Source: a bacterium
GTDB lineage: Bacteria; Patescibacteriota; Microgenomatia; Levybacterales; UBA12049
Direction: 5' to 3'
DNA: 64,000 nt
NCBI GenBank assembly: GCA_021777565.1
Contig: JAJYDJ010000001.1
Coordinates: forward strand, 248,856 to 312,855
Both the position numbers and the translations under genes were made by a program. The notes under the pieces are model-generated. The model worked only from the letters and a program-made list of their open reading frames with translations. It was not told the origin of the DNA and did no database searches. Each line of letters starts with the position of its first letter. Within the stretch, counting starts at the first letter, position 1. Below are positions 7,401 through 64,000 of the stretch, piece after piece.

Positions 7401-7405
7401 GGATC

Positions 7406-18903: not shown

Positions 18904-18906
18904 TAT

Positions 18907-19974: not shown

Positions 19975-19975
19975 T

Positions 19976-21181: not shown

Positions 21182-21230
21182 AGTTCCCTCTTGACAGCAG
21201 GAAAATGAATGTGTTTGACTAGATATAGGT

Positions 21231-23088: not shown

Positions 23089-23126
23089 AGCATTTACGTT
23101 TTCCAAAGAAATGGGTATGCTAATAA

Positions 23127-24405: not shown

Positions 24406-24409
24406 AAGT

Positions 24410-25443: not shown

Positions 25444-25958
25444 ACATAAAACAAAAGGGTCAAACACTTATTGAAATTCTCGTTGCGCTTTCTATTGCTG
25501 CGGTTTTAGTCTCTGCAACATCGGTTGCCGTACTCAGTGCACTTTCTAATGCAGAATTTGCTAAGCAACAGAGCCTCGCTTCTCAATATGCGGATCAAGG
25601 TATCGAAATCATACGTTCCATGCGTAATAACGATTATAGTAACTTTCAGCAACTCTCAGGGACATACTGTATGGCATCGTCCTGCAACAGTCTGGTAAAT
25701 ACGTCTTCAAATGCCTGTGGTATCTCAACCGACCCTACGGGGGTAATCTCATGTGGTCAGAATGTATCAACATTTGTAAGAACAGTGAATGTCTCACCAA
25801 CAAATGCTGGAGCGACTGATTGTAATACGGCTGGATATAAAGTGTCGGTAAATGTCGCGTGGGCCGATGCTAAGTGCACAGATTCTACCAAACCATTTTG
25901 TCATATCTTGACAATCAGTACGTGTTTATCTAATTATCAAATTGAACCAACACCATGA
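25440..25958 (+). CDS. Prepilin-like protein with Gln at +1 (PilV-like minor pilin)
   Basis: MNIKQKG|QTLIEILVALSIAAVLVSATSVAVL. Glu+5 is retained while Phe+1 is replaced by Gln. Confidence 0.7.
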   Translation: MNIKQKGQTLIEILVALSIAAVLVSATSVAVLSALSNAEFAKQQSLASQYADQGIEIIRSMRNNDYSNFQQLSGTYCMASSCNSLVNTSSNACGISTDPTGVISCGQNVSTFVRTVNVSPTNAGATDCNTAGYKVSVNVAWADAKCTDSTKPFCHILTISTCLSNYQIEPTP

Positions 25959-26497
25959 AAAAATATAGATCACAAAAAGGGTTTACTCTCATAGAGTTAT
26001 TAGCTGCACTGTTAGTGTTGGTAGTCGTTGGATCAATCATTGCCCAAATTCTGGTGACCGCATTTCGAACATCCAAAAAAAGTGATTCTATAGCACTCAT
26101 TAAACAGAGTGGTAATTTTGCTCTGACGGAAATGGCAAAAACTATTCGTAATGCCAGAGAGCTTATGACTCCCTATCCTTGTGGGACGCCAAGTAGTCCG
26201 ACGACCTCAAATTCTCTCCAAATTATATCTCCAGATGGGAGGCAAATTACGCTCTCCTGTGATTTGACAAATAACCTATTGGCATCAGATTCTGTCTCGT
26301 TGATCGATAACCAGACCCTCCAACTCTCTGCTCCTTGTAACTTTGTTTGTAGTCAGGTCAGTAGTACTGATCTTCCCTTGATTACGATCTCCTTTGGATT
26401 GCAACAGAAAGTTACGAGTAGCTTTGTTGAAAATGTTGCTGCACCCTCCCCGATTCTTTTTACGACCTCAGTTACCTTAAGGAACCTGACACGCTGA
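25955..26497 (+). CDS. Prepilin-like protein (PilW/PilE-like minor pilin)
   Basis: MKKYRSQKG|FTLIELLAALLVLVVVGSIIAQIL class III signal. Confidence 0.8.
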   Translation: MKKYRSQKGFTLIELLAALLVLVVVGSIIAQILVTAFRTSKKSDSIALIKQSGNFALTEMAKTIRNARELMTPYPCGTPSSPTTSNSLQIISPDGRQITLSCDLTNNLLASDSVSLIDNQTLQLSAPCNFVCSQVSSTDLPLITISFGLQQKVTSSFVENVAAPSPILFTTSVTLRNLTR

Positions 26498-26538
26498 GTT
26501 CATTGACAGTCATAAGGCATGCTTGATAGGCTAAAGGT

Positions 26539-27348
26539 ATGGATAGATATTCTCAACGTGGCCAAACGCTCCTGGTCATTGTTTTGGTGATGGTCGTTGC
26601 ATTGACGGTCAGTCTTTCCATTGCTGCTCGTATGGTGACTACTCTTCGTGTTTCTTCAGAAGAAGCCAATTCTGAGAAGGCATTTCAGGCAGCTGAGTCA
26701 GGAGTAGATTACGTTCTCAAGTCAGGACAACAAATTACAACAGCCCAGGATCTTGGTAATCATGCCGTCATTGCTTCAGCTACGTATTCTGATCTTCGCA
26801 ACATCTCGCAATACATTATTCGAAACGGTGTGATTGTCGCGCAAGATGATGGTATCGATGTCTGGCTCTCAGACTATTCACCACAGAAATCACTTATTTA
26901 TAACAATCCCTGGAGCGGAGGGCTAACGGTTTATTGGAGTCTTCCCTCAGATAATTGTGGTGCGACTCCCCCACAGGCGGCAGCCCTTTCATTGATCTTG
27001 ATTTCAGGTTCAAAAACTGCTCCAACTATTCATAGATATGCAGTCGATCCATGTTCTCGATTGAATGGATTTAGTCCAGCTGGGGCCGGTACAACGATTG
27101 GTACGGTCGTATTTAAAAACTCATATCATATTGGTGGGATCACCAATGGGTTGTTACTTCGTATCATTCCTCTTTATTCAGGGACTATTCTTGGTATCAA
27201 GCTAGATGCAGGGTCCGCTAACTTTCCATCACAAGGGAAAATCATTACTTCCAGAGGAAGTTCTGGCACCACTACACGACAAATAAGCTATTTCCAAGGC
27301 TATGACAGTGTACCATCTGAATTTTTCTATTCGCTTTTTTCACAATAA
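26539..27348 (+). CDS. PilX-like minor pilin (Gln at +1)
   Basis: MDRYSQRG|QTLLVIVLVMVVALTVSLSIAA followed by an AFQAAESG motif reminiscent of the PilX N-terminal domain. 269 aa, the largest in the set. Confidence 0.7.
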   Translation: MDRYSQRGQTLLVIVLVMVVALTVSLSIAARMVTTLRVSSEEANSEKAFQAAESGVDYVLKSGQQITTAQDLGNHAVIASATYSDLRNISQYIIRNGVIVAQDDGIDVWLSDYSPQKSLIYNNPWSGGLTVYWSLPSDNCGATPPQAAALSLILISGSKTAPTIHRYAVDPCSRLNGFSPAGAGTTIGTVVFKNSYHIGGITNGLLLRIIPLYSGTILGIKLDAGSANFPSQGKIITSRGSSGTTTRQISYFQGYDSVPSEFFYSLFSQ

Positions 27349-28376
27349 TGGCATTAAATACTTTTGGACTAGATTTAGGATCAAAACACGTACGAGCTGT
27401 ATGGCTTGATAGTACGGGTGAGCATGCGTTTAGCCTAAGCTCTGCCTTCTCTGCTCCCATGCCTGAGAAAGGATTACAATCAGAGTCTCCTCTTGATCAA
27501 CAACAAGTAGCACAGGTCATCGGACAGGTTGTGAGTGAGGCACACATTACCGTAAAAAGTGTAAACATTGCACTGCCTGAAAACCAAGTATATACCCGTG
27601 TTGTAGAAACACCAGTCCTTTCAGATAAAGAGCTCACTTCAGCAATTTACTGGATTGCAGAGCAGCAAATTCCAATTCCTCTTAAGAGTGTAACATTGGA
27701 TTATCGTATCTTACACAAACCTACCCCTGAGGAAAAATCAACTACCATGCAGGTTCTTCTCGTTGGTGCGCCAACGGCCCTTCTTGATAGATATGAACAT
27801 GTCCTTTCACTGATTGGCCTTTCTATCGCCAGTGTGGAGACAGATACACTCGCTGCTCTTCGTGTCTTGACCAAACCTGACAAAATTGGCCGTATGGTTT
27901 TAAACGTCGGACTTGCGAGTAGCACACTGTCTCTGGCCGTTGGGAATGACCTCCGGGTTGTCTACTCAATTCCAACAGGCACAATGGCATTGACCCGCGC
28001 GATCTCAACCAATCTCAATATGTCGCTTACTCAGGCAGAAGCATATAAAAATACGTATGGAGTTACCCCGGGACATGGAAATTCTTTGGAAGTTGCGGTC
28101 GAACCTATTTTAAATGTTATGGTGAGCGAAGTGAAAAAAGCTATCTCCTTTTTTAGAGAGAAGCTCCCCGATGCGACACTATCTGAAATGTTATTGATTG
28201 GAGATGACGCCCAGGTCCCAGGGCTTGCTCAATATTTTCAGGCACGTACAGGGCTTACAACTCATGGAGCTGATCCATGGGGTATGCTGGGAATAAAAAA
28301 CCTCCCCAAAGAGCTGGTAGATGAAGGCCCTGCATATGCCGTAGCACTGGGCCTTGCTATGCGAACATATGAGTAA
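27348..28376 (+). CDS. pilM: Type IV pilus assembly protein PilM (actin-like ATPase fold)
   Basis: MALNTFGLDLGSKHVRAVWLD N-terminus, 342 aa, immediately upstream of pilN/pilO. Confidence 0.8.
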   Translation: MALNTFGLDLGSKHVRAVWLDSTGEHAFSLSSAFSAPMPEKGLQSESPLDQQQVAQVIGQVVSEAHITVKSVNIALPENQVYTRVVETPVLSDKELTSAIYWIAEQQIPIPLKSVTLDYRILHKPTPEEKSTTMQVLLVGAPTALLDRYEHVLSLIGLSIASVETDTLAALRVLTKPDKIGRMVLNVGLASSTLSLAVGNDLRVVYSIPTGTMALTRAISTNLNMSLTQAEAYKNTYGVTPGHGNSLEVAVEPILNVMVSEVKKAISFFREKLPDATLSEMLLIGDDAQVPGLAQYFQARTGLTTHGADPWGMLGIKNLPKELVDEGPAYAVALGLAMRTYE

Positions 28377-28908
28377 AACTGATGTAAATTTGATGGTCCA
28401 AAGAAGGAAGCAAGGTGAAACGAGTGAGAGACTACGTATCTTAAGTATTCGACTCGCCTATATCTTTGTAGCGCTTACGATAGTAATTTCAGTGGTATTT
28501 TTTATATTGTCACGCGATAGTACTGCCGCGACGCTTCAAGCACAACAAAATCAAACAGAGACGGCAATCATGCTCCTGAAAGATAAAGCGAGTAGTATTT
28601 TTCTTTTGAAAAAAAGAATTGCATTGGCCAGCTCGATCTTGAAATCTCGCAAGAATTATGATGTACTCCTCTCCTCTACGCTTTCTGGACTCGGGGCTGA
28701 TACCAGAGTGGATACATACTCAATTACGTCAAAAACAATTTCAGTTACCGCATCATCAAGTAATTTATCATCCCTTAATTCATGGCTTGATACACTGAAG
28801 ACACAGACAAATCCCAAAGGACTTTTCTCAAAATTAAGTATTGATAACTTTATTCTCGATACAAAATCTGGGCTCTATAGCTTGAGTATCACCGTAACCT
28901 TTTTATGA
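28369..28908 (+). CDS. pilN: Type IV pilus assembly protein PilN (bitopic)
   Basis: Short cytoplasmic N-terminus, single TM (YIFVALTIVISVVFFIL), then coiled-coil/periplasmic region. Start at 28369 assumed; ORF-track start is 28354. Confidence 0.7.
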   Translation: MSKTDVNLMVQRRKQGETSERLRILSIRLAYIFVALTIVISVVFFILSRDSTAATLQAQQNQTETAIMLLKDKASSIFLLKKRIALASSILKSRKNYDVLLSSTLSGLGADTRVDTYSITSKTISVTASSSNLSSLNSWLDTLKTQTNPKGLFSKLSIDNFILDTKSGLYSLSITVTFL

Positions 28909-29561
28909 TGCCTAACCAAACAACACTAAGAATTTTATTGTATAAATATCGGGATTTTCTGTTCCCGGTAGGAACTATTGTGGTGTGTTTACTCATCATG
29001 GTAGTTATCCTCATCCCAGAAGGAGTAAATATTGTGAATCAGGAGAATAATGTGCAAGTACTGCGAAATGATATTGCCTCTTTACAGACAAATCTTTCTG
29101 TCATTGAAAAATATGATACGTCTCAACTGCACCTTAATACGAGTCGTGTTAATCGTGCCGTACCAACCTCTAAGGATTTTGGTGTTGTCATCGATACGCT
29201 TCAGCGAGCTGCCAATGCATCAAATGTGGCCTTGAGTGACTACACATTTCAGGTGGGAGATTTGGCCGATACGAGGCCACAAGTAAAATCATCAACCAAT
29301 GCGAGCACATTTTTGGTCTCAGTGGTTCTGTTGGGTGATGCCAAATCTGTTGCGGCATTTTTACGTTCAGTCGAACATCAACTCCCTCTCGCTGATGTGA
29401 GTGACGTGAAAGGGACGATACAAAGTGCTGGTGTGACACTTTTGTTTTATTACCAACCTCAGACGAGTGTGACGGTACAGGCAACGGATAACTTCACCTC
29501 CCTCACTCCATCGGAACAGTCAACATTAAGTACTCTTGCCACCTACGACACGATAAAGTAG
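28905..29561 (+). CDS. pilO: Type IV pilus assembly protein PilO (bitopic)
   Basis: Single TM (VGTIVVCLLIMVVILI), coiled-coil, then C-terminal globular domain. Last gene of the pil run. Confidence 0.7.
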   Translation: MMPNQTTLRILLYKYRDFLFPVGTIVVCLLIMVVILIPEGVNIVNQENNVQVLRNDIASLQTNLSVIEKYDTSQLHLNTSRVNRAVPTSKDFGVVIDTLQRAANASNVALSDYTFQVGDLADTRPQVKSSTNASTFLVSVVLLGDAKSVAAFLRSVEHQLPLADVSDVKGTIQSAGVTLLFYYQPQTSVTVQATDNFTSLTPSEQSTLSTLATYDTIK

Positions 29562-49673: not shown

Positions 49674-50534
49674 TTATTTCCCTAAAAATCCAATACCCAG
49701 GATTGCCACGATGACAAGTGCAATCCCAACCCAATTTTTAACAGATATTTTATCTTTCAAGAAAATCTGCGCAAGAACGATTGTTACCACCGGATATGTT
49801 GAGGTAATTGGTGAAGCAATTGATGCCAGAGTAAAGTTGAAGGAGACAAAGAGAAATAATGTTCCAACTGCTGTTGCGAGTGTCCCCCAGAGTAAAAATG
49901 TGTAATCCTTAAGATTTTTTAGCATTCCCGTAAATTGTTGTACAGATTGATGCTGAAGCTTCATATAGCCAAAACTCACAATGACTTGCGCAATTGCTGC
50001 GTACACAAAGAAATTCCATACAGATGTATCAGTTATATATCGTTTACTCAAGGTGTCGGATGCCCCAATTGCCACAGCTGCCCCAATAGCCCACAAAATT
50101 GGAGATAATTTGTGCAGTTCTTCTTTATCTATTTTGTCTGGGAAAGCAACGATAATTGTTCCAAGAACTGCCAAAAACACACAGATTCCTGTAAAAAGAT
50201 CTATTTGTTCGTGGTTAAAGAGTATGGAAAAGATGACTGTATAAATTGAGTAACTTGCAAGTATTGGGACATTAATACTTAATTCACCCTTTGAAAGGGC
50301 ATGAAAATATATACCTTGGCCAAGGATTGCCGTTGAAAACCCAACCAAGGTCCCATAGAGAAGATTCCCCGGTGTAAAGCCAAACAGGATTCCGACTCCT
50401 CCCCAGCAAATAAGACAAACGAGTGCAAATATGAAGAAAGAGGCTGACGGAGAAAAAGTCGTGAAACTTTTTTTCATCAAGACATTTGCAATGCCAATTA
50501 CTAATGACCCACAAAGTGCAAAAAATATACCCAT
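49674..50534 (-). CDS. EamA/DMT-superfamily transporter (10 TM)
   Basis: Two EamA-like 5-TM halves, hydrophobic throughout. 286 aa. Confidence 0.65.
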   Translation of the reverse strand: MGIFFALCGSLVIGIANVLMKKSFTTFSPSASFFIFALVCLICWGGVGILFGFTPGNLLYGTLVGFSTAILGQGIYFHALSKGELSINVPILASYSIYTVIFSILFNHEQIDLFTGICVFLAVLGTIIVAFPDKIDKEELHKLSPILWAIGAAVAIGASDTLSKRYITDTSVWNFFVYAAIAQVIVSFGYMKLQHQSVQQFTGMLKNLKDYTFLLWGTLATAVGTLFLFVSFNFTLASIASPITSTYPVVTIVLAQIFLKDKISVKNWVGIALVIVAILGIGFLGK

Positions 50535-52566: not shown

Positions 52567-53118
52567 TTACAAAGAGATTGTGAGGTTTCGTGCGTCAAAA
52601 TCGTGCTTAAAGTTCTCAATGTCTTGCATGAAGTAACTCACATGTGAGGCCCATGCTGGATTTGAGGCATAGTGATGGCCAAGTTTGTAAATGTCAGTAT
52701 CTCCCCACTGGTTAATGTATTGCTGACGAATACCTTGTGAGACCGTGTGAATACCTTCAGGATATGAGTTAAAACAGACCATGTTCGTGCCAAAGATTCC
52801 CCAACCCCAGGCATTGATACAAGGGACTGCCTGTCCAAAGTTGGATTCAACTCCAGAAATAGCCAGAACAAGATCCCATGGGAGTTGATAGGCATCAGCT
52901 TCCTGTACGAAGTTAGCAGCGTAGGGTGCAAGTGGTGAGTTACGTTTCTCCAGATACGCACGAGCAGCCTGGATACGGGTATCAGCCACGATAGTAGTCT
53001 GGGCATCGATATTGAGTATTGCGGATGAACCAGAAGCCTTTTCTTGGGCATGTGCTGCTTGCAATGGGAAAACCATCAGAATTGCGAGAAGGTAAGTTGT
53101 TGTAAGAATGTGTTTCAT
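52567..53118 (-). CDS. Secreted glucosaminidase-domain (GH73/FlgJ-like) putative peptidoglycan hydrolase, paralog A
   Basis: Signal peptide MKHILTTTYLLAILMVFPLQAAHA|QE. ISGVESNFGQ (E-S-x-x-G), then NAWGWGIFG and FNSYPEGI match the glucosaminidase-domain pattern. Start taken at ATG 53118; the ORF-track GTG at 53154 would overlap a terminator. Confidence 0.6.
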   Translation of the reverse strand: MKHILTTTYLLAILMVFPLQAAHAQEKASGSSAILNIDAQTTIVADTRIQAARAYLEKRNSPLAPYAANFVQEADAYQLPWDLVLAISGVESNFGQAVPCINAWGWGIFGTNMVCFNSYPEGIHTVSQGIRQQYINQWGDTDIYKLGHHYASNPAWASHVSYFMQDIENFKHDFDARNLTISL

Positions 53119-53152
53119 ACTCGGGTCTTTACAGACCGTATGGGTGTGAGCC

Positions 53153-53196
53153 ACAAAAAAATCCTAACGTATGCATTTGAGAGGCATACCTTAGGA
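53153..53196 (-). terminator. Rho-independent terminator between the two GH73-like paralogs
   Basis: Minus strand reads CCTAAGGTATGC-CTCTCAAAT-GCATACGTTAGG (12-bp stem, 1 mismatch) followed by ATTTTTTTG. Confidence 0.55.
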
Positions 53197-53322: not shown

Positions 53323-53907
53323 CTATATCTGATCCATGAAGGAAGACACGTTTTGGATCCAGTTATTGGTATTGGTAGGGTTGTACACCGGGCCAATCTG
53401 CTCTGGCGTAATAAGGCCTTGAGAGACATAGTGAACACCCAGGGATTTGCTGACCGTAATGATGGCATCTTCATAGTTATCAAAGGTGACTACCTGCCCT
53501 CCATGGATGCCATATCCCCAGCAATTATGCGTGCCTGGCATTTCAGTCTTGCACAGCGTAGACTCCTGCATGCCTATGGCTACTAACAGGCGGTAATCAA
53601 GCTTATTTTTATCTGCCTCACGCACAAATACCTGAGCAAAAGGTGCCAGAGGCGAGTGATATCTTCTCAGGAAGGATTCCAATCTGAGCGTGCGCGAGTC
53701 AGTCTCCCCGACCGTCGTAGTGATAGTGTCTGCTGCCGTAGGTAAGGCCGCGTAGGCGACCTTTTTGGCGGGCGTAATATGTCCAATAAGGGGGAAAACC
53801 AGTCCTGAGCTATGCGCGTAGCCAAAATAGCCATATAACATTATGGCAGCAACAAGTAACCCTGGGGTGAAGGTGAAGAATGATAGAAGTAGAAATAACT
53901 TCTTCAT
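53323..53907 (-). CDS. Secreted/membrane-anchored glucosaminidase-domain (GH73/FlgJ-like) putative peptidoglycan hydrolase, paralog B
   Basis: N-terminal hydrophobic anchor MKKLFLLLSFFTFTPGLLVAAIMLYGYF. IGMQESTLCK, NCWGYGIHGG and FDNYEDAI parallel paralog A. Confidence 0.6.
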   Translation of the reverse strand: MKKLFLLLSFFTFTPGLLVAAIMLYGYFGYAHSSGLVFPLIGHITPAKKVAYAALPTAADTITTTVGETDSRTLRLESFLRRYHSPLAPFAQVFVREADKNKLDYRLLVAIGMQESTLCKTEMPGTHNCWGYGIHGGQVVTFDNYEDAIITVSKSLGVHYVSQGLITPEQIGPVYNPTNTNNWIQNVSSFMDQI

Positions 53908-53981
53908 GCTGTCTTTATCGTGTCACTTTGTGCGTATGGTTGTCAAGTTGAGCTCAGATTGGTACAATTGTTGTGTTGTCA

Positions 53982-54064
53982 GCCCAGATGGCGAAATGGT
54001 AGACGCGCTAGTTTCAGGTACTAGTCCTCGCAAGGGGGTGGAGGTTCGAGTCCTCTTCTGGGCA
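53982..54064 (+). tRNA. tRNA-Leu (anticodon CAG)
   Basis: GCCCAGATGGCGAAATGGTAGACGCGCTAGTTTCAGGTACTAGTCCTCGCAAGGGGGTGGAGGTTCGAGTCCTCTTCTGGGCA. Long variable arm; anticodon loop TTCAGGT. No CCA. Confidence 0.85.
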
Positions 54065-54078
54065 CAACAGAGCATCTG

Positions 54079-54825
54079 CTATTTGTCCCCTAGTGCATCG
54101 CGTAAGGTATAACGATCAGCCATAAGATACCACTTAATACGCAACAAATCGGTGAGTGACAAGATAATATCACGAGGGAAATGGACCTTGGTATGAACAT
54201 CATTTGACCAGCTGACCGGGACCTCCTTTACTGAAAACCCACGCTTGATGGCAAGCGTGATAACTTCACAATCAAAACCCCATCGATCAATGTGTGAACG
54301 TGTGAAAATTTCTTTACTTGCTTTATGAGAAAATGCTTTAAATCCACACGTGAAGTCAGAAACAGGTACACGAAGTAACACCTGAGAAAACTTCGTAAAA
54401 CTTTTTCCCAAAAATTCTCTCAACCATGGCTGATGATGCTTTATCTTGGCACCTTTGGTTTTGCGTGATCCGATCACGACATCATGGGATGACAGTAAAG
54501 GAAGGAAATCAATCAGCGTGTCCAGTGGGGTTGAAAGATCCACATCCATAAAAAGATGGTAACGTCCTTGTGCCCGGAGCATCCCTACTCTGATAGCATG
54601 GCCTTTCCCTTTATTGGCCGAATAGCCGATAATTCTGACGTGTGGGTGTTTTTTTGCAAAGGCAATGAGTTTATCTCGCGTCTTATCACTACTCCCGTCA
54701 TCAACAAAAATAATTTCAGTCGTAAATTTTTGTCGTGAAAAAAAAGTGGTAATTACGGGCAAGGTATGTAAACGCTTCTGCTCGTTATAGACAGGGATGA
54801 TGACTGATAAGTATGGCCTTTTCAT
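54079..54825 (-). CDS. GT2-family glycosyltransferase, polyprenyl-phosphate sugar synthase-like (DPM1/GtrB/ArnC-type)
   Basis: MKRPYLSVIIPVYNE...IIFVDDGSSDKT...GKGHA GT-A signature (DxD-type). Soluble, about 248 aa. Start at MKRPY (54825). Confidence 0.75.
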   Translation of the reverse strand: MKRPYLSVIIPVYNEQKRLHTLPVITTFFSRQKFTTEIIFVDDGSSDKTRDKLIAFAKKHPHVRIIGYSANKGKGHAIRVGMLRAQGRYHLFMDVDLSTPLDTLIDFLPLLSSHDVVIGSRKTKGAKIKHHQPWLREFLGKSFTKFSQVLLRVPVSDFTCGFKAFSHKASKEIFTRSHIDRWGFDCEVITLAIKRGFSVKEVPVSWSNDVHTKVHFPRDIILSLTDLLRIKWYLMADRYTLRDALGDK

Positions 54826-55559
54826 ACGGTCCGCTTTTGTGCAACGCAAAAAAGTGTCGTCCCGAACGGCACAGGAAGAATACGCATCCACACCGACTCT
54901 ATCCAAAACAAAAGTGAAAAAAGTGTATTAACCAAACTGTTGGTGTGAGAAAAATCCGAGGGATATGATTTACCTTTATATAACAATGATTTTACATATC
55001 GAACTACGTATGCAGGAATGAAAAGGAACGAATAACGATACGTCATTTCACGAATACTAAACCCATTCTTCACCAATACCTCATACAATGACTTTCTAGT
55101 ATAACGTCTCTTGTGGTGCAGCACTTCATCCCATGTGCTCCAAAGGAATGGAAAGGCAGGGACACTGAGAATGAGATATCCATTTTTCTTTAATACTCGC
55201 GCGCATTCATTAAGCGCCTGTCCCTCACTCTCTATATGTTCGAGAACATCAAGAAGCGTAATACCATCAAAGGTCTGTGCTGGGAAAGGTAAGTGCTCAG
55301 CATCCCCTTTTACTACTTGCGTCAATCCTCTTTTGTGACAGAAGCGTAATGCATCCGCGGATGGGTCTACTCCATAGGCATCCCCTATCATTGACCATTT
55401 CTGTACATTATTTCCTGTGCCACATCCCACATCCAAAATCTTTGCGTTGGGGGTAGTCACGAAGCGACGAAGATAGTCGAAAATCGTGCCTGTTTTTGCT
55501 CTATGCCACCAATGCTTTTGTTCAGTAACAAAGAGATCTTTATATAAATATCGTTCCAT
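54822..55559 (-). CDS. Class I SAM-dependent methyltransferase
   Basis: Motif I ILDVGCGTGNN and motif II/post-I FDGITLLDVLEHI. 4-nt overlap with the GT2 start. Confidence 0.75.
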   Translation of the reverse strand: MERYLYKDLFVTEQKHWWHRAKTGTIFDYLRRFVTTPNAKILDVGCGTGNNVQKWSMIGDAYGVDPSADALRFCHKRGLTQVVKGDAEHLPFPAQTFDGITLLDVLEHIESEGQALNECARVLKKNGYLILSVPAFPFLWSTWDEVLHHKRRYTRKSLYEVLVKNGFSIREMTYRYSFLFIPAYVVRYVKSLLYKGKSYPSDFSHTNSLVNTLFSLLFWIESVWMRILPVPFGTTLFCVAQKRTV

Positions 55560-55609
55560 ATACGAGGCTACATTTTATAGTATATACTAATGCTTGAGCA
55601 TACAGAAAG

Positions 55610-57214
55610 ATGAAATTTTTATATAACCCCAGGAATAGATGGATTGCTTTGCTTTTTTCCGTTATTGTCCTGCTTACCTATCGAGATGTTTGGTTTATTT
55701 ACTTCCAGCAAGATGAATGGTTCTGGTTTAAGAAAATTCTTTTATTCGATCACTACGGCATCTGGAATCACTTTCAGGTTGTGAGTAATCACTTTACTCC
55801 CCTTTTCTCCTTGCAGTTTGATCTTATGATGCGTCTTTTTGGATTTAATACTTTTTTTTATGGCCTTTATAACTTTGTTTTGCATTACATCAATACAGTT
55901 CTTGTCTTTGTCTTTGCAAAAAAGGTAACACGGAGTGAAAAGATTGGTATTATTGCCGGTGCTCTTTTTGCAGTCGCAGCGACACCGGTGGAGGCGGTTA
56001 CCTGGTATGGGACGTCTCCCATGTCTCTTCCTTCGACCACCTGTGGACTGTTCGCCTTACTGCTTTTTCATAGTTACTTACAAAAAGGACAAATAAAAAA
56101 ACTTATCCAAAGTCTTGCTCTTATCATCATCGGGAGTTTGTTTTATGAAAGTCTTATCGCCTTATTTCTTTTTCTGATTGTGTGGGCACTTATAGAAAAA
56201 CGAAATCGGAAAGATACTATTAGTTGGTCCATGCTCGTTGGTGTCCTCTTTTTTATCTTCAGGTCTCTCTTACAAGTGACACAAGGGATTACCATAAAGG
56301 TCTCCTATGCGACTTATCTGGCAACGGTTGTTCATCACCTGATAAAATTTATTCCTCTAGGATTTTCTCAACTCTTTGTCCCTACAGAGTGGGTATACCA
56401 AACCTCGCTTGCACTTATTCAATATAATCAGCCGGACATATTGCAGATGATTCCAAAAGAGTGGGATATGTATTTCAATCTTGATAATCTGATGCGCACA
56501 TTCTTTCTGTCATTTACGGTCATCATTGTCTTGAGTCTTCTTATTTACATCGCTATCCCTTTTGCCCAAAGAGAGAGAAAAAAATATATTATTCTTTTCT
56601 TTCTTTTTTGTATCATTAATTTCCTTCCCTTTTCGCTTCTGCCCCAGAGTGGACTTGAGTCTCGTCATTTTTATTTCATCACCATAGGGAGTTCTGTCAT
56701 GTTGGGAATTATTATTGAGAGATTTTTTGAGAAGATTGGGTCGCCAATCGGCAAACTTCTTATTATCTTTCTCGTGACTTATTATATGGGTTTTCAAATC
56801 CATTTTATTCGAGATGCGGTAGTTGCTCTGGGACGTGTAAGTGCCGTCAGAGCAACAATAGTTCACGATGTTGTGTCCACATACAAGACAGTGCCACCTC
56901 GTGTGATTTTCTATTCAACGACTGGGGTTCTGCCATTTCAATCAGGATTTGGAGAGACGCTTATGGTCAACTACGCATCACAACACTCATATATCCCTTT
57001 CTTTAAAACCGAATTCCTGACCCACATGGGAGAACAAGGATATCAGGAAATGGATGGTGTCGGATTTGGCTACTTTAGTGAATATGCACTCCTCAAGCAG
57101 GCATATGATGCCTATCACCTGCAGCCATCGGATGTCTATGCCTTTGCGTGGGATAATGTGAATAAAAAGCTCATTGACCAATCTGTGCAAATCAGGGCCA
57201 AGCTCTCTCAATAA
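55610..57214 (+). CDS. Polytopic membrane protein, putative GT-C-fold glycosyltransferase (GT39/GT83, PMT/ArnT-like)
   Basis: 534 aa, at least 11 predicted TM helices. Asp-Glu pair in the first extracytoplasmic loop (FQQDEWFWF) as in PMT/ArnT-type GT-C enzymes. Divergent from the GT2+MTase pair. Confidence 0.5.
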   Translation: MKFLYNPRNRWIALLFSVIVLLTYRDVWFIYFQQDEWFWFKKILLFDHYGIWNHFQVVSNHFTPLFSLQFDLMMRLFGFNTFFYGLYNFVLHYINTVLVFVFAKKVTRSEKIGIIAGALFAVAATPVEAVTWYGTSPMSLPSTTCGLFALLLFHSYLQKGQIKKLIQSLALIIIGSLFYESLIALFLFLIVWALIEKRNRKDTISWSMLVGVLFFIFRSLLQVTQGITIKVSYATYLATVVHHLIKFIPLGFSQLFVPTEWVYQTSLALIQYNQPDILQMIPKEWDMYFNLDNLMRTFFLSFTVIIVLSLLIYIAIPFAQRERKKYIILFFLFCIINFLPFSLLPQSGLESRHFYFITIGSSVMLGIIIERFFEKIGSPIGKLLIIFLVTYYMGFQIHFIRDAVVALGRVSAVRATIVHDVVSTYKTVPPRVIFYSTTGVLPFQSGFGETLMVNYASQHSYIPFFKTEFLTHMGEQGYQEMDGVGFGYFSEYALLKQAYDAYHLQPSDVYAFAWDNVNKKLIDQSVQIRAKLSQ

Positions 57215-57288
57215 AATGAGCATAGCCCCCTTTAGGTAGCAGCCTCTAGGCGACAGGGCAGTTTTTTGCTATAATTTTGTCAATCCAA

Positions 57289-57371
57289 GCGGATGTGGTG
57301 AAATGGTATACACGCTACCTTGAGGTGGTAGTGCTCGAAAGGGCGTGGAGGTTCAAGTCCTCTCATCCGCA
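57289..57371 (+). tRNA. tRNA-Leu (anticodon GAG)
   Basis: GCGGATGTGGTGAAATGGTATACACGCTACCTTGAGGTGGTAGTGCTCGAAAGGGCGTGGAGGTTCAAGTCCTCTCATCCGCA. Anticodon loop TTGAGGT; long variable arm. Confidence 0.85.
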
Positions 57372-57386
57372 CCGTTCCTTACGTAA

Positions 57387-57463
57387 GGATCCATAGCTCA
57401 GCTGGTTAGAGCGTCTGTTTTACACACAGAAGGTCAGAGGTCCGAATCCTCTTGGATCCACCA
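57387..57463 (+). tRNA. tRNA-Val (anticodon TAC)
   Basis: GGATCCATAGCTCAGCTGGTTAGAGCGTCTGTTTTACACACAGAAGGTCAGAGGTCCGAATCCTCTTGGATCCACCA. Anticodon loop TTTACAC; CCA encoded. Confidence 0.85.
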
Positions 57464-57490
57464 ATCAGGATTGGTACAATAAAATAGTTC

Positions 57491-57563
57491 GCCGAGGTAG
57501 CCAAGGTGGTCAAGGCACCTGTCTGAAGAACAGGCTATATCAGTTCGACTCTGATCCTCGGCA
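57491..57563 (+). tRNA. tRNA-Phe (anticodon GAA)
   Basis: GCCGAGGTAGCCAAGGTGGTCAAGGCACCTGTCTGAAGAACAGGCTATATCAGTTCGACTCTGATCCTCGGCA. Anticodon loop CTGAAGA. No CCA. Confidence 0.7.
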
Positions 57564-57852
57564 CAGCACTTCTTGCTCTTCTGATAATTTCCTCTCTATA
57601 CTATTAGTATGATAGTCAAAAGAAAAAATGGCTATTATGTCCTCTCTGAAAAGACCAGACGTAATTTGGGTGGCCCATATGCAACGCGAGAAGAGGCTGT
57701 AAAACGGCTGCGACAGGTGGAATTCTTCAAATATCGCACAAAATAGCAATTTTTATATAGTTTGATCTACTTTGTACTCTTTTCTTTCGTAAATTTTACT
57801 GGTATACTACCTTTATCTTAGTAATAAGATATATCTCGCAAGAGATGCAAAG

Positions 57853-61341: not shown

Positions 61342-64000
61342 TTATGGTGCTTGTCTGTCGTCTTGCCAGGTGCGGACGTAATCCCAATTAGCCGTAATGG
61401 CGCCATCTCCCCCATTCTCGACTTTAAGATAGATATCCATAGGACTTGTGGCTCCCGGCTGATTGGAAGTAGTTGCCACACGAGTTATCGTTGTCCCATC
61501 ATCTACGGTACAAATAGTCTCGGGAGTTGATCCACTTCTCACCTCTACCCTCAGACGGTACCAGGTGCTCGTGTTAATCGTTACTCCCGTTGTTGTGTAG
61601 TTGTCTGTTGCACCACCGTCGTCGGTAATACATTGCCACTGGGTATCAGTGGAGCGCTTCCCGATGTAGGCATGGTGGGTACTTGCATTGGTATCTCCCC
61701 CATAGGCAACTTTTGTATTGGTAAATCCTGCATAAATTCGTGCATTGGTTGTATTACTGAGTGAAAGTTTGGTCTCAAAAACTGGATTGTTGCCTCTCTG
61801 ATAGAATCCATTTGATAGTGTTGCTTGTGTACTGAGGTCACACCCTCGGCCTGCAGTGGTAGAAGTCGTAAATTGCAGAATGCCATTCAATCCTGCGGTA
61901 CCGGTGATAAAGGTAGCTGAACAGGTGTTCCCCGCACCACTGGTACTGATGGCTTGCCATTTGGTAGTTGTGTCTAGTGCTCTTCCCATGAAGTCATCTC
62001 CAAAGGTATTCATATTTGGCCAGTCAATCATGCCATGCTGCAATTCGACATCCAAATAGCCAGTGCCACCGTTTTTCAGGTTAAGTGTTGTAAAGTTATT
62101 CTGTGCTGTACTTGCGACATTGCCAATATTTGCATTGACATAACTAGTAGTGTTCGCAGGAGAACCTTCTACTGTATTTAAAGTCAAAGCACCTGATGCA
62201 AGCGTAAATCCATTGGATGCAGTCAAAAGTCCTGCGGAGGTAATCGTGCCAGTGCCGGTCGTAGAGATATTCGTGGTGGTACTATTTCCCCTCGTAGTCA
62301 CACTCTGGAGAGTATCTGCCTCAGTGGAGGTTATTGTCATGGTGGATCCTGAACCAGTTACAGCGGTGATACCTGATCCCAAGATAGTGAGCGTTCCCCC
62401 CAGGGATACGCTCGCAGTCCCTGAATTGCCAGCAACAGTTAGTCCTGAGTTTTGCAAATTAGCATTGGTGATGCCAGCTGTACCTGAAAGGTTTGCATTG
62501 GTGAGTCCGGATATAGTGTTGCTCCCTGCGGCAATTATTTTGTTAGTTAACGTACCACTACTGGTAAGACCTACCAAGGTATCTGAAGCATTTGGAAGTG
62601 TAAATGCCGTGCTGTCTGTCCCACTAAGTGAAAAAGAGTTATTCACCGTAAATGTTTTCCCAGCAGCAAGAGACAACGTGTTCGTGCCGTTGTTGGTAAT
62701 AGTAAGTCCGTTGATAGTAGTAAATGCAGGTGTTGCAGAGGTGGCAAACGTAACGCCACCAGTGCCATTATTGTTGGTCGTCATATTTGTCCCTGCGGTA
62801 AGGGTGACTGTCCCCCCTTGAGCGATTGATGAATCCGATCCTGTTGATGCTTTCAGGCCAAAAAGTGTCCCACCACTCGTCAGACACGTAGGGCATGAAA
62901 GTGAGAGAGATCCTCCAAGAGCGACCAATCCTCCCCCACTGAGTGGCCCAGAGGTGCTAACGGTGAGTGACGAGTTTTGCAAATTAGCATTCGTGATACC
63001 AGCCGTGCCCGAGAGATTAGAGTTTGTCAGCCCTGAGATCGTGTTACTTCCTGCGGCAATGGTTTTATTGGTCAGCGTGTCGTTACTTGCTAGTCCTACT
63101 AGCGTATCGGAGGCACTGGGAAGGGTGAAGGTTGTTCCGTCCGTGCCGGTAAAGGTAAGTGAGCGGTTGACCGTGAGTGTTTTGCCCGCGGCGATAGCAA
63201 GGGTATTTGTTCCATTATTTGTGATTGTTAAGCCATTAATAGTAGTGAAGGTTGGAGTTGTGGAAGTGGCGAACGTGATGGTACCGGCACCATTATTTGT
63301 TGTCGTGATGTTTGTGCCTGAAGCAAGTGAAAGCGTGCCTCCCATATCTATGCTCGAGTTTGCCCCTGAGGAAGCGATGGCAGTGAAAAGTGCACCAGAG
63401 CTGGTCAGACAGGTGGGGCATGAGAGTGTCAGTGATCCACCCAGAGATACAGTACCTCCGCCACTTAATGGTCCGGATGTGTTGACGGTAAGTGATGAGT
63501 TTAAAAGATTGGCGTTGGTAATGCCTGCTGTCCCTGAAAGATTAGCATTAGTTATACCAGAAATAGTGTTGCTGCCAGCAGCGATTGTTTTATTAGACAA
63601 AATATTTGATGATGAGGCCGTTGTGTAGCCACTATCATTGTTCCATTGTGAAACTGCGTTTGACCCGAAGTTAGTAACCGTCAGTCCACTGATGGCAGTA
63701 TTGGTCACGTTCGTAACTCGTCCTCTGGCATCAGTCGTAAAGACCGGAATACTACTGCCTGCACCATAGGTTCCAGCAGTCCCTACGGGTTTGAGCGCGA
63801 CACTCCCTGTCGCATCAACAGTTATATCCCCACTGAGTGCTTGAGAAACCCAGGCAGTCCCACTGCCGACAAGGATATTGCCTGTACTTGCGGTCGTAGT
63901 GCCTAACACTGCTCCACGAATATTACTCACAATACTTGCACCCGGTGTCCCTGTCACATCACCATTAAAGTTCACTGACGCAGGGGTCTGCCACGAAGGG
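61342..64000 (-). CDS. Very large Thr/Gly/Ser/Asn-rich tandem-repeat surface protein with C-terminal ConA-like/LamG-like lectin domain (N-terminus beyond the window end)
   Basis: More than 880 aa open to the window edge. Three ~175-aa repeats (NKTIAAGSNTISGLTNANLSGTAGITNANLQNSSLTV...SCPTCLTSGG...). C-terminal about 230 aa rich in beta-strand pattern (YRLRVEVRSG..., WDYVRTW) resembling a jelly-roll lectin/glucanase domain. Confidence 0.7.
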   Translation of the reverse strand, partial: PSWQTPASVNFNGDVTGTPGASIVSNIRGAVLGTTTASTGNILVGSGTAWVSQALSGDITVDATGSVALKPVGTAGTYGAGSSIPVFTTDARGRVTNVTNTAISGLTVTNFGSNAVSQWNNDSGYTTASSSNILSNKTIAAGSNTISGITNANLSGTAGITNANLLNSSLTVNTSGPLSGGGTVSLGGSLTLSCPTCLTSSGALFTAIASSGANSSIDMGGTLSLASGTNITTTNNGAGTITFATSTTPTFTTINGLTITNNGTNTLAIAAGKTLTVNRSLTFTGTDGTTFTLPSASDTLVGLASNDTLTNKTIAAGSNTISGLTNSNLSGTAGITNANLQNSSLTVSTSGPLSGGGLVALGGSLSLSCPTCLTSGGTLFGLKASTGSDSSIAQGGTVTLTAGTNMTTNNNGTGGVTFATSATPAFTTINGLTITNNGTNTLSLAAGKTFTVNNSFSLSGTDSTAFTLPNASDTLVGLTSSGTLTNKIIAAGSNTISGLTNANLSGTAGITNANLQNSGLTVAGNSGTASVSLGGTLTILGSGITAVTGSGSTMTITSTEADTLQSVTTRGNSTTTNISTTGTGTITSAGLLTASNGFTLASGALTLNTVEGSPANTTSYVNANIGNVASTAQNNFTTLNLKNGGTGYLDVELQHGMIDWPNMNTFGDDFMGRALDTTTKWQAISTSGAGNTCSATFITGTAGLNGILQFTTSTTAGRGCDLSTQATLSNGFYQRGNNPVFETKLSLSNTTNARIYAGFTNTKVAYGGDTNASTHHAYIGKRSTDTQWQCITDDGGATDNYTTTGVTINTSTWYRLRVEVRSGSTPETICTVDDGTTITRVATTSNQPGATSPMDIYLKVENGGDGAITANWDYVRTWQDDRQAP
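62150..63650. repeat. Intragenic tandem direct repeats (about 520-540 nt period, about 3 copies, diverged) inside the giant surface-protein gene
   Basis: The antisense ORFs 62150..62821 and 62954..63628 are near-identical shadows (EFCKLALVMPAVPERFALVSPDIVLLPAAI / EFCKLAFVIPAVPERLEFVSPEIVLLPAAM / EFKRLALVMPAVPERLALVIPEIVLLPAAI), revealing the repeat at nucleotide level. Confidence 0.7.

What the first reader, a model, noticed from the sequence alone, without database searches (positions are those of the whole stretch)
54079..57214. Three-gene glycosylation module: polyprenyl-P-sugar synthase-like GT2 + SAM methyltransferase, divergent from a GT-C membrane transferase
A soluble DPM1/GtrB/ArnC-type GT2 (DxD, about 248 aa) overlaps a class I SAM methyltransferase by 4 nt. 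Divergently across a 50-nt gap sits a 534-aa protein with at least 11 TM helices and a first-loop DE motif typical of GT-C (PMT/ArnT, GT39/83) enzymes. This is the canonical two-step logic: the GT2 loads a sugar onto a polyprenyl phosphate at the cytoplasmic face, and the GT-C transfers it to an extracytoplasmic acceptor. In an organism without LPS, the acceptor is likely a protein (O-mannosylation-like) or a wall glycopolymer; the pilins, the giant Thr/Ser-rich surface protein and the PT-linker pilin are candidate substrates. The methyltransferase suggests a methylated sugar.
Basis: partly seen in the sequence, partly recalled or inferred. Interest (0 to 1): 0.5.

Follow-up and report, generated by a model that had tools for sequence, protein, structure and literature searches.

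The report
Lipid-linked sugar glycosylation module, Patescibacteria
Three adjacent genes in a small-genome (candidate phyla radiation) bacterium most likely load a sugar onto a membrane lipid, methylate it, and transfer it to an unknown target outside the cell; the logic is known, but the membrane enzyme belongs to an uncharacterised family.

Summary
A 248-aa TM-less GT2 (54079-54825, -) overlaps a 245-aa class I SAM methyltransferase (54822-55559, -) by ATGA. A 534-aa membrane protein (55610-57214, +) lies 50 nt away, divergent.

The GT2's best solved relatives are GtrB, Pyrococcus DPMS and ArnC, and it keeps both Dol-P-phosphate arginines (R121, R136). In 9 of the 10 informative loci holding one of its 12 closest relatives, a 437-722-aa polytopic membrane protein lies beside it or one gene away.

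A methyltransferase is the immediate neighbour of 34 of 87 family GT-C genes. Two neighbours are GT2-methyltransferase fusions.

The two-step reading is supported. The sugar, the methylation step, the flippase and the acceptor remain unknown. This is a new variant of a known kind, of moderate interest.

The parts
54079..54825 (-). GT2 glycosyltransferase, 248 aa, no TM segment; predicted polyprenyl-phosphate hexose synthase (ALG5/DPM1/GtrB/ArnC-like)
   Evidence: Pfam Glycos_transf_2 at 4.5e-25. Best PDB sequence relatives are PfDPMS at 6e-16, GtrB sll0501 at 1e-15 and ArnC. The family profile gives GtrB 1.8e-22, PfDPMS 3.9e-22 over positions 5-207, and ArnC 1e-17. The family is large, about 240 aa, 50-59% identical, and JGI labels it dolichyl-phosphate beta-glucosyltransferase. 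No TM segment.
54538..54546 (-). DxD motif D94-V-D96 of the GT2 (aligned with D89-A-D91 of PfDPMS)
   Evidence: Alignment to 5mlz read against PMC5526996. D94 and D96 are invariant in 22 homologues.
54822..55559 (-). Class I SAM-dependent methyltransferase, 245 aa, first gene of the two-gene operon; its stop overlaps the GT2 start (ATGA)
   Evidence: Pfam Methyltransf_11 at 2.3e-23, Methyltransf_25 and Methyltransf_23. An orthologous family of 238-258 aa, 40-59% identical over the full length, named Patescibacteria or Gottesmanbacteria where named. Overlap read.
55413..55439 (-). SAM-binding motif I (I41-LDVGCGTG-49) of the methyltransferase
   Evidence: Read from the translation; lies inside the Methyltransf_11/25 match, residues 41-131.
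55560..55609 (.). 50-nt divergent intergenic region between the methyltransferase-GT2 operon and the GT-C gene
   Evidence: Sequence read. It is AT-rich and contains TATAGT and TATACT. The consensus scan found no sigma-70 pair inside it.
55610..57214 (+). GT-C-fold membrane glycosyltransferase, 534 aa, 11 predicted TM helices, N-terminus in and C-terminus out; member of an uncharacterised Patescibacteria family
55700..55720 (+). YFQQDEW motif (residues 31-37) in the first extracytoplasmic loop; D35-E36 is the predicted catalytic acidic pair
   Evidence: F32, Q34, D35 and E36 are invariant in alignment A1. D35 and E36 are 79/79 and W37 78/79 in family members from independent genomes.
56882..57211 (+). 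C-terminal extracytoplasmic alpha/beta domain (residues 425-534) with conserved LPFQSGFG and GFGYF motifs; predicted acceptor-binding domain

Best explanation
This is a compact module for extracytoplasmic glycosylation using a lipid-linked monosaccharide donor.

Step 1 (inferred from homology and context). The soluble GT2 acts at the cytoplasmic face of the membrane. It transfers a hexose from a nucleotide sugar onto a polyprenyl monophosphate, as DPM1, ALG5, GtrB and ArnC do. The sugar may be glucose, judging only by the ALG5-like label.

Step 2 (inferred from linkage and fusions). The co-translated class I SAM methyltransferase has no signal peptide or TM segment, so it must work in the cytoplasm. 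It most likely methylates that sugar at the lipid-linked stage, in the way auxiliary epimerases modify undecaprenyl-P-ribofuranose in other three-component systems.

Step 3 (not identified). A flippase moves the donor to the outer leaflet.

Step 4 (fold and motif shown, chemistry inferred). The GT-C enzyme uses the invariant D35-E36 pair in its first outer loop, together with conserved outer-face residues E180, R352 and R414. It transfers the (methyl)hexose onto an acceptor held by its family-specific C-terminal outer domain.

The acceptor is unresolved. A Ser/Thr-rich surface protein or pilin and a cell-envelope glycopolymer are about equally likely.
For: GT-C fold and motif:
- A confident model and exclusive GT-C top hits.
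- The DE pair is invariant in 79/79 relatives; E180 is 77/79, R352 74/79 and R414 78/79.
- Positive-inside topology places all of these residues outside.
- Some family members carry an extra C-terminal F5/8 type C domain (Pfam accessions PF00754 and PF22633; the name is from my own knowledge). That fits an extracellular C-terminus.

GT2 as a lipid-phosphate sugar synthase:
- The top solved relatives are GtrB, PfDPMS and ArnC. Only lipid-P sugar synthases align over nearly the full length; other GT2s align over the N-terminal half only.
- R121 and R136 align with PfDPMS R117 and R131, which bind the Dol-P phosphate (PMC5526996). Both are invariant in the family.
- Of the 12 closest GT2 relatives (154-297 bits), 10 sit in loci long enough to judge. 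In 9 of these, a 437-722-aa polytopic membrane protein lies beside the GT2 or one gene away. Three of nine such proteins tested are Pfam-recognisable as GT-C-type or related (GT-C_AftD; PTPS_related with a weak YfhO hit; PMT below cutoff).
- Of 44 GT2 genes within 1.5 kb of a family GT-C, 27 carry the C-terminal TM anchor typical of GtrB/ArnC/DPMS. Several others are the soluble type seen here.

Methyltransferase linkage:
- A methyltransferase is the immediate neighbour of 34 of 87 family GT-C genes, and both a methyltransferase and a GT2 lie within 1.5 kb of 25 of 87.
- Methyltransferases fill 20% of neighbour slots, against 7.8% of other genes in the same loci, and against 1 methyltransferase-like ORF in the 64-kb window.
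- Orthologous methyltransferase-GT2 pairs in the same order occur in L073, L074, L076 and L077.
- A PMT_2 - GT2(244) - methyltransferase(243) trio occurs in L157. In L156 the methyltransferase is divergent from GT87-like and PMT_2 genes.
- GT2-methyltransferase fusion proteins lie directly beside family GT-C genes in L041 and L016.

Precedents:
- Cytoplasmic auxiliary enzymes act on lipid-P-sugars in three-component systems (PMC11127046).
Against: - No biochemical data exist for any of the three families.
- The GT2 lacks the TM anchor of GtrB, ArnC and PfDPMS.
- Three PfDPMS functional residues are not conserved: Q93 becomes S98, S135 becomes G140 and K178 becomes D185.
- No GtrA, SMR, MATE or Wzx-type flippase lies next to the module. 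The only nearby candidate is an EamA/DMT protein 5 kb away.
- The trio is not universal. The GT-C's closest subgroup is instead paired with a Kelch beta-propeller and a GT1. GT2 genes are not enriched as immediate neighbours beyond the high GT2 content of these loci (13% against 12%).
- The methyltransferase shows no similarity to a sugar methyltransferase beyond the generic class I core.
- The methyltransferases next to family GT-C genes are not all orthologous to one another.
Confidence: 0.65

Rival explanations
1. Protein O-glycosylation, PMT-like. The module specifically O-glycosylates Ser/Thr of secreted proteins such as the type IV pilins or the Ser/Thr-rich surface protein. This mirrors Pmt/Ppm1 in Actinobacteria and GT39 in Caldicellulosiruptor. 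It is a more specific version of the best explanation, differing only in the acceptor.
For: - A DE pair after TM1 and 11 TM helices with the N-terminus in match PMT topology (the PMT features are from my own knowledge).
- The PMT_2 hit is above cutoff.
- Candidate substrates exist in the window: seven GFTL[IV]E prepilins at 21231-26497, and an ORF of at least 877 aa with 31% Ser+Thr at 61342-63975, 4 kb from the module.
- A bacterial GT39 near its substrate gene is documented (PMC6151902).
Against: - There is no PF02366 (PMT) match and no MIR domain. The outer domain is C-terminal and has no structural relative.
- STT3, ALG12, AftA and ArnT score nearly as high as PMTs, so the fold does not discriminate between acceptors.
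- In other genomes the family sits in tandem paralogue arrays, among nucleotide-sugar modification genes and other GTs. That looks more like glycopolymer assembly.
- The pilin genes are 26-34 kb away.
Confidence: 0.3
2. Glycopolymer or glycolipid decoration, GtrV/YfhO/ArnT/Aft-like. The GT-C adds a (methyl)hexose side branch to a cell-wall polysaccharide, a teichoic-acid-like polymer or a membrane glycolipid, outside the membrane. This too differs from the best explanation only in the acceptor.
For: - Related loci show repeated GT2-methyltransferase-GT-C units (for example L007, with two GT2-methyltransferase-GT-C units followed by a further GT2-methyltransferase pair) and tandem GT-C paralogues. 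These sit among epimerase/dehydratase, DegT aminotransferase and GT1 genes.
- Three-component systems that decorate polysaccharides are widespread, and their GT-C enzymes carry extra outer substrate-binding domains (PMC11127046).
- The window has peptidoglycan synthesis genes, read from the N-terminal sequences listed and not checked against a family library. Two secreted proteins with weak similarity to wall hydrolases lie next to the module.
Against: - The window's module has no polysaccharide assembly genes nearby: no other GT, no Wzx/Wzy or ABC exporter and no nucleotide-sugar genes.
- The C-terminal domain is not a recognisable carbohydrate-binding module.
Confidence: 0.3
3. Generic clustering. 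The GT2 is an ordinary Leloir transferase that builds a cytoplasmic or undecaprenyl-PP-linked oligosaccharide. The methyltransferase is unrelated (it is database-labelled UbiE-like). The GT-C uses some other donor. The three genes lie together only because envelope genes tend to cluster.
For: - GT2 genes are no more frequent as immediate GT-C neighbours than elsewhere in the same loci (13% against 12%).
- Several PfDPMS functional residues are not conserved.
- JGI labels the methyltransferase orthologues as UbiE.
- NCBIfam gives only sub-threshold hits for all three proteins.
Against: - GT2-methyltransferase gene fusions lie directly beside family GT-C genes.
- The 4-nt translational coupling is conserved in orthologous pairs.
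- In 9 of the 10 informative loci among the 12 closest GT2 relatives, a large polytopic membrane protein lies beside the GT2 or one gene away, even though the family of that protein changes.
- The top solved relatives are all lipid-P sugar synthases, and both phosphate-binding arginines are retained.
- In the 64-kb window these are the only GT2-like and methyltransferase-like genes.
Confidence: 0.1

Closest known systems
Three-component extracytoplasmic glycosylation systems (GtrA/GtrB/GtrV of Shigella and Salmonella; ArnC/ArnEF/ArnT; CsbB/GtcA/YfhO; Citrobacter ORF15/14/12, which founded GT136)
   Same: A cytoplasmic-face enzyme makes a polyprenyl-monophosphate sugar, and a GT-C-fold enzyme transfers it outside the membrane. 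The GT-C may carry an extra outer substrate-binding domain. Auxiliary cytoplasmic enzymes can modify the lipid-linked sugar before export (PMC11127046). The window's GT2 is closest to GtrB, DPMS and ArnC.
   Different: No flippase gene lies in or next to the module. The GT2 has no TM anchor. The auxiliary enzyme is a methyltransferase, which I know of in no described three-component system (own knowledge; none was found in the searches). The GT-C has no sequence match to any solved GT-C.
Protein O-mannosyltransferases (PMT, CAZy GT39) with Dol-P-Man or polyprenyl-P-Man synthase (DPM1/Ppm1)
Soluble or partner-dependent polyprenyl-P sugar synthases (human DPM1, mycobacterial PpgS and Ppm1 catalytic domain, haloarchaeal Dol-P hexose transferase, eukaryotic ALG5 catalytic domain)
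   Same: A GT-A domain of about 210-250 aa without its own TM anchor. NCBIfam alignments to the haloarchaeal Dol-P hexose transferase (residues 13-208) and PpgS (8-205) cover nearly the whole protein. DxD and both phosphate-binding Arg equivalents are present.
   Different: All NCBIfam scores are far below the equivalog cutoffs. The motif after the DxD is L-S-T, where PfDPMS and GtrB have L-Q-H/D. The K178 equivalent is Asp. No small membrane partner gene is evident.
Lipid-stage methylation in archaeal N-glycosylation (Halobacterium salinarum transient methylation of dolichyl oligosaccharides)
   Same: It sets a precedent for a SAM-dependent methylation acting on a lipid-linked glycan before transfer (PMC11407970, citing Lechner et al. 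1985).
   Different: That case is archaeal, acts on an oligosaccharide, and the enzyme was not compared here. Homology between the enzymes was not tested.

Membership tests
GT-C fold glycosyltransferase superfamily | Polytopic membrane protein (7-13 TM helices) whose three-dimensional fold matches solved GT-C enzymes | tested here: met
GT-C fold glycosyltransferase superfamily | Conserved acidic catalytic residue(s) in the first extracytoplasmic loop after TM1 | tested here: met
   D35-E36 in YFQQDEW. Both are 79/79 in family members from independent genomes. The loop is placed outside by the positive-inside rule.
GT-C fold glycosyltransferase superfamily | Uses a lipid-phosphate-linked sugar donor | not testable with these tools
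   Supported only indirectly, by linkage to lipid-P sugar synthase-like GT2 genes.
CAZy GT39 (PMT protein O-mannosyltransferases) | Significant sequence match to the PMT family model (PF02366) | tested here: not met
   Only PMT_2 (PF13231) at 31.5 bits, and EpsG below cutoff. No PF02366 hit at E<=0.1.
CAZy GT39 (PMT protein O-mannosyltransferases) | Lumenal or outer MIR domain in the large late loop (a feature of eukaryotic PMTs; own knowledge) | tested here: not met
CAZy GT83 (ArnT-like) | Sequence similarity to ArnT | tested here: not met
Polyprenyl/dolichyl-phosphate sugar synthases of GT2 (DPM1/ALG5/GtrB/ArnC type) | GT-A domain with a DxD metal and donor motif | tested here: met
   Glycos_transf_2 at 4.5e-25. 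D94-V-D96 aligns with D89-A-D91 of PfDPMS and is invariant.
Polyprenyl/dolichyl-phosphate sugar synthases of GT2 (DPM1/ALG5/GtrB/ArnC type) | Basic residues that bind the acceptor lipid phosphate (PfDPMS R117 and R131) | tested here: met
   R121 and R136 align with R117 and R131 (with PMC5526996). Both are invariant in 22 homologues.
Polyprenyl/dolichyl-phosphate sugar synthases of GT2 (DPM1/ALG5/GtrB/ArnC type) | PfDPMS S135, K178 and Q93 equivalents | tested here: not met
   These align with G140, D185 and S98. PMC5526996 notes that GtrB also lacks clear counterparts of R131 and S135, so they are not universal to the class.
Polyprenyl/dolichyl-phosphate sugar synthases of GT2 (DPM1/ALG5/GtrB/ArnC type) | Membrane anchoring by C-terminal TM helices or a partner subunit | tested here: not met
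   No TM-grade segment (max KD19 1.12). By contrast, 27 of 44 GT2 genes beside family GT-C genes in other genomes do carry C-terminal TM segments.
Polyprenyl/dolichyl-phosphate sugar synthases of GT2 (DPM1/ALG5/GtrB/ArnC type) | Closest characterised relatives are lipid-P sugar synthases, with alignment through the acceptor half | tested here: met
   The profile against PDB gives GtrB 1.8e-22, PfDPMS 3.9e-22 (positions 5-207 of 241) and ArnC 1.2e-17 to 2.1e-16. Other GT2s align only to about position 90-128. The same pattern appears in NCBIfam.
Three-component Gtr-type system | Dedicated lipid-sugar flippase (GtrA, SMR, MATE or Wzx type) encoded with the synthase and the GT-C | tested here: not met
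   No such ORF lies adjacent. The window's only multi-TM ORFs are PilC, the prepilin peptidase, an EamA protein (49674-50534), a 99-aa ORF with no Pfam hit, and antisense ORFs. The rest of the roughly 953-kb genome could not be searched.
Class I SAM-dependent methyltransferases | Rossmann-like SAM-binding domain with a glycine-rich motif I | tested here: met
   Methyltransf_11 at 2.3e-23, Methyltransf_25 at 1.4e-18 and Methyltransf_23 at 4.4e-17. Motif ILDVGCGTG at residues 41-49.
Sugar O-methyltransferases | Specific similarity to a methyltransferase with a known sugar substrate | tested here: inconclusive
   The PDB hits are generic. D-glucose O-methyltransferase (6uv6) appears only at 4.4e-8, among many unrelated methyltransferases. 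NCBIfam MftM is at 7.9e-7, far below cutoff.

The most novel reading that the evidence does not exclude
The Patescibacteria GT-C family defined by YFQQDEW and a fold-orphan C-terminal domain would be a new glycosyltransferase family. Its donors would be methylated polyprenyl-phosphate sugars made by a coupled, sometimes fused, GT2-methyltransferase pair. Methylation at the lipid-linked stage would be an integral step, for example marking the donor or enabling its translocation without a dedicated flippase. That recalls the 'transient methylation' reported only once before, in Halobacterium. The product would decorate the pili or surface proteins that these episymbiotic bacteria use to attach to hosts.
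Probability: 0.15. Interest if true: 0.65.

Novelty: new variant of a known kind. Interest (0 to 1): 0.4.

Why it matters
Patescibacteria (the candidate phyla radiation) are a very large, mostly uncultured branch of bacteria that live attached to other microbes, and almost nothing is known about their surface chemistry.

This module, and the roughly 770-cluster GT-C family behind it, point to a lineage-typical way of decorating the cell surface with lipid-delivered, probably methylated, sugars. That yields concrete and testable enzyme targets: a soluble lipid-phosphate sugar synthase, a coupled methyltransferase, and a new GT-C family with an unrecognised outer domain.

If the methyltransferase really acts on the lipid-linked sugar, it would add a new kind of auxiliary step to the three-component glycosylation paradigm.

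If not, the locus is an ordinary envelope-glycosylation gene set, correctly read by the first stage.

Tried and rejected
1. Genomic island between tRNA genes. The module is bracketed by tRNA-Leu(CAG) at 53982-54065 and by the tRNA-Leu(GAG), Val and Phe genes at 57289-57564. Its GC content is slightly low (0.41 against about 0.44). However, the only long flanking direct repeat is the pair of tRNA-Leu genes themselves (79% alike). No att-like repeat, integrase or mobility gene is present, so the idea was dropped.
2. Sequence searches of the GT-C against solved structures found nothing, either with the single sequence or with the family profile. NCBIfam also gave no hit.
4. The AlphaFold-database fold search (afdb50) was not available.
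5. The promoter and terminator scan of 53900-57400 found fewer sites than shuffled sequence would give, and none inside the 50-nt gap.
6. Flippase search. No GtrA-like or other small multi-TM ORF with a Pfam match was found near the module, nor in the small ORFs next to family members in L004 and L006.
7. Methyltransferase substrate. PDB and NCBIfam comparisons return only the generic class I core.
8. Organism name. The exact-sequence cluster look-up returned no names, only that the genes lie on a 953,194-bp NCBI contig. The genome-contig scan did not retrieve the window's own genome. The lineage is therefore inferred from relatives only.
9. Literature. No paper combines Patescibacteria with GT-C glycosyltransferases.

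Full report
**1. Observation**

- The GT2 ORF runs 54079..54906 (-) from a TTG. The ATG at 54825 gives 248 aa beginning MKRPYLSVIIPVYNE, which matches the N-termini of its homologues.
- The methyltransferase occupies 54822..55559 (-) and is 245 aa.
- Read on the minus strand, the junction is ...ACC GTA TGA with ATG at 54825-54823. This is a 4-nt ATGA overlap.
- The membrane protein occupies 55610..57214 (+) and is 534 aa. The gap is 50 nt.
- Pfam gives Glycos_transf_2 (4.5e-25), Methyltransf_11 (2.3e-23) and PMT_2 (2.5e-7; 31.5 bits against a cutoff of 26.1).
- Neither the GT2 nor the methyltransferase has a TM-grade hydrophobic segment.

The window comes from a 953-kb contig. It carries a type IV pilus cluster and, judging from N-terminal sequences only, peptidoglycan synthesis genes. 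The relatives of all three proteins are almost all Patescibacteria: Levy-, Woese-, Davies-, Gottesman- and Shapirobacteria, Saccharimonadales and Parcubacteria. The source organism is therefore inferred to be a candidate-phyla-radiation bacterium.

**2. The membrane protein is a GT-C enzyme of an uncharacterised family**

The word-indexed search found only 21 relatives, the nearest 31-32% identical. An exhaustive profile search found 767 cluster representatives at E<=1e-30. There were also 32,645 at E<=1e-10, which I take, without having examined them, to be the wider GT-C superfamily.

By sequence, however, neither the protein nor its family profile matches any solved structure. NCBIfam has no model for it.

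Hydropathy, model helices and the positions of Lys/Arg-rich loops give 11 TM helices, with the N-terminus inside and a 110-residue C-terminal domain outside. Directly after TM1 lies YFQQDEW. Across 79 distinct full-length family members from independent genomes, conservation is as follows:
- D35 and E36: 79/79
- W37: 78/79
- E180: 77/79
- R352: 74/79
- R414: 78/79

All of these lie on the predicted outer side.

**3. The GT2 looks like a lipid-phosphate sugar synthase**

The GT2 belongs to a very large family of roughly 240-aa proteins, 50-59% identical, which JGI labels dolichyl-phosphate beta-glucosyltransferase. Its best solved relatives are Pyrococcus DPMS, GtrB (sll0501) and ArnC. This holds with the single sequence and with a 22-sequence profile (GtrB 1.8e-22; DPMS 3.9e-22 over positions 5-207; ArnC about 1e-17). 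Other GT2 enzymes align only over the N-terminal nucleotide-binding half. NCBIfam shows the same pattern.

I mapped the alignment onto the residue roles described for PfDPMS (PMC5526996):
- Conserved: D94-x-D96 corresponds to D89-x-D91. R121 and R136 correspond to R117 and R131, which hold the Dol-P phosphate. All four are invariant in the family.
- Not conserved: Q93 becomes S98, S135 becomes G140 and K178 becomes D185.

The protein is therefore of the same kind as DPMS but is not a DPMS orthologue, and the sugar cannot be named.

**4. The three genes form a recurrent unit**

*From the GT-C side.* I used 72 loci, of which two duplicates were dropped for the neighbour-share counts. They held 87 distinct full-length family GT-C genes.
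- A class I methyltransferase lies within 300 bp of 34.
- A GT2 lies within 300 bp of 23.
- One or the other lies within 1.5 kb of 59, and both of 25.
- The commonest layout is GT2 (about 320 aa) - methyltransferase (about 240 aa) - GT-C in one operon.
- Divergent layouts like the window's, but with the two small genes in the opposite order, occur in L013 and L033.

Methyltransferases fill 20% of immediate-neighbour slots, against 7.8% of the other genes in these already sugar-rich loci. The 64-kb window has only one methyltransferase-like ORF. GT2 genes are not specifically enriched as immediate neighbours (13% against 12%), though they are very abundant in these loci. Of the 44 GT2 genes within 1.5 kb of a family GT-C, 27 have the C-terminal TM anchor typical of GtrB, ArnC and DPMS. 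Several others are the soluble type found here.

*From the GT2 side.* Of the 12 closest relatives (154-297 bits), 10 lie in loci long enough to judge. In 9 of these a 437-722-aa polytopic membrane protein lies beside the GT2 or one gene away. None of these proteins belongs to the window's GT-C family. Three of nine tested have a GT-C-type or related Pfam match (GT-C_AftD; PTPS_related with weak YfhO; PMT below cutoff). An orthologous methyltransferase (247-261 bits) sits directly upstream of the GT2 in L073, L074, L076 and L077.

*From the methyltransferase side.* L157 reads PMT_2 (552 aa) - GT2 (244) - methyltransferase (243) - GT2 (326). In L156 the methyltransferase is divergent from a GT87-like and a PMT_2 protein.

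*Fusions.* Two proteins directly next to family GT-C genes are GT2-methyltransferase fusions: L041 8641-10107 and L016 5325-6965. Both were confirmed by Pfam.

**5. Mechanism**

- Shown here: the fold, the topology prediction, the conserved motifs, the gene linkage and the fusions.
- Inferred: the GT2 makes a polyprenyl-P-hexose. The methyltransferase must act in the cytoplasm, since it has no export signal and SAM is cytoplasmic. It modifies that sugar, most simply at the lipid-linked stage. The donor is flipped. The GT-C transfers it using D35/E36 to an acceptor bound by the C-terminal domain.
- Precedents: cytoplasmic auxiliary enzymes act on lipid-P-sugars in three-component systems (PMC11127046). 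Lipid-stage methylation occurs in Halobacterium (PMC11407970).
- Unknown: the sugar, the position of the methyl group, the flippase and the acceptor.

No flippase candidate lies next to the module. The nearest is an EamA/DMT protein at 49674-50534.

The two acceptor hypotheses cannot be separated. Favouring protein O-glycosylation: the best fold match is a PMT, there is a DE motif, and Ser/Thr-rich secreted proteins and pilins are present in the window. Favouring glycopolymer decoration: in other genomes the family occurs as tandem paralogues, among nucleotide-sugar and other GT genes.

**6. Comparison with known systems and novelty**

The logic is that of Gtr/Arn/PMT-type lipid-phosphate sugar glycosylation. 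It differs in four ways:
- The GT-C family cannot be assigned by sequence to GT39 or GT83, and it has an orphan outer domain.
- The synthase has no TM anchor.
- The methyltransferase is tightly coupled and sometimes fused.
- No flippase is encoded alongside.

I found no literature on GT-C enzymes in Patescibacteria.

I rate this a new variant of a known kind, of moderate interest. The added value is the family-level picture and the evidence for methyltransferase coupling.

**7. Dead ends**

These were the tRNA-flanked island idea, the promoter scan, the fold search of the C-terminal domain, inference of the methyltransferase substrate, the organism name and the unavailable afdb50 library.

Noticed in passing
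window 17152-29561: A type IV pilus gene cluster, identified from N-terminal sequences and sizes only. It has PilB-, PilT- and PilC-like ORFs (17152-21181), a seven-TM ORF at the prepilin peptidase position (21800-22588), and seven ORFs with a GFTL[IV]E prepilin motif (21231, 22567, 23127, 23824, 24410, 24898, 25955). One further ORF has GQTLIE (25440), and a PilM-like ORF lies at 27348-28376. Nothing links them to the module.
   Followed up: partly
window 61342-63975 (-): An ORF of at least 877 aa with 31% Ser+Thr and no Pfam match. It probably continues beyond the window end. It lies 4 kb from the module and could be a glycosylation substrate. The antisense ORFs at 62150-62821 and 62954-63628 look spurious.
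   Followed up: partly
window 53982-54065 and 57289-57564: The module is bracketed by tRNA genes: Leu(CAG) on one side and Leu(GAG), Val(TAC) and Phe(GAA) on the other. Further tRNAs lie at 50615, 52426 and 60093, so seven tRNA genes fall within 10 kb. The two flanking tRNA-Leu genes are 79% alike. No mobility genes or att-like repeats were found.
   Followed up: yes
window 52567-53154 (-) and 53323-53907 (-): Two paralogous ORFs of about 195 aa, each with a hydrophobic N-terminal segment, share a ...SPLAP(Y/F)A..FV(Q/R)EAD... core. One has weak, sub-threshold similarity to the Glucosaminidase and SLT_2 wall-hydrolase domains. They lie directly next to the module, interleaved with tRNA genes.
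   Followed up: partly
window 49674-50534 (-): An EamA/DMT-superfamily membrane protein of 286 aa, with weaker hits to nucleotide-sugar transporter families (TPT, UAA). ArnE/ArnF-type lipid-sugar flippases are, from my own knowledge, small relatives of this superfamily. That makes it the only flippase candidate in the window, at 5 kb from the module. This is untested.
   Followed up: no
L002, L003, L004, L010 (about 3500-7500 in each): The subgroup of GT-C relatives closest to the window protein (28-30% identity) is not paired with a GT2 and methyltransferase. Instead it is paired with a divergent two-gene unit: a 319-330-aa Kelch beta-propeller protein plus a GT1/GT4 glycosyltransferase. This is a second, unexplained conserved context for the family.
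   Followed up: partly
L007 1-13707; L001 6001-9241; L014, L021, L027, L029, L060: Family GT-C genes often occur as tandem paralogues, sometimes each with its own GT2 and methyltransferase. L007 reads GT2-MT-GTC-epimerase-GT2-MT-GTC-GT2-MT (MT = methyltransferase, GTC = GT-C). This suggests that several different lipid-linked donors are used in one pathway.
   Followed up: partly
P0001 (ENA contig of 39,578 bp): A second assembly carries the same GT-C gene, 100% identical, but as a 487-aa product that lacks the last 47 residues of the C-terminal domain. This could be an assembly or gene-calling difference, or a natural truncation.
   Followed up: no
L009-L072 record titles: Many GTDB species-representative MAGs that carry this family are titled 'uncultured Gammaproteobacteria bacterium'. 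Yet several have chromosome-scale contigs of only 0.78-0.94 Mb and Patescibacteria-type gene content. These titles look like placeholder mislabels.
   Followed up: no
L073 4280-5008 (+): An orthologue of the window's methyltransferase (259 bits) lies upstream of the GT2 in this NCBI contig. It was not among the called genes, and it overlaps the called 481-aa GT1 gene on the other strand by about 390 nt. One of the two gene calls is probably wrong.
   Followed up: no
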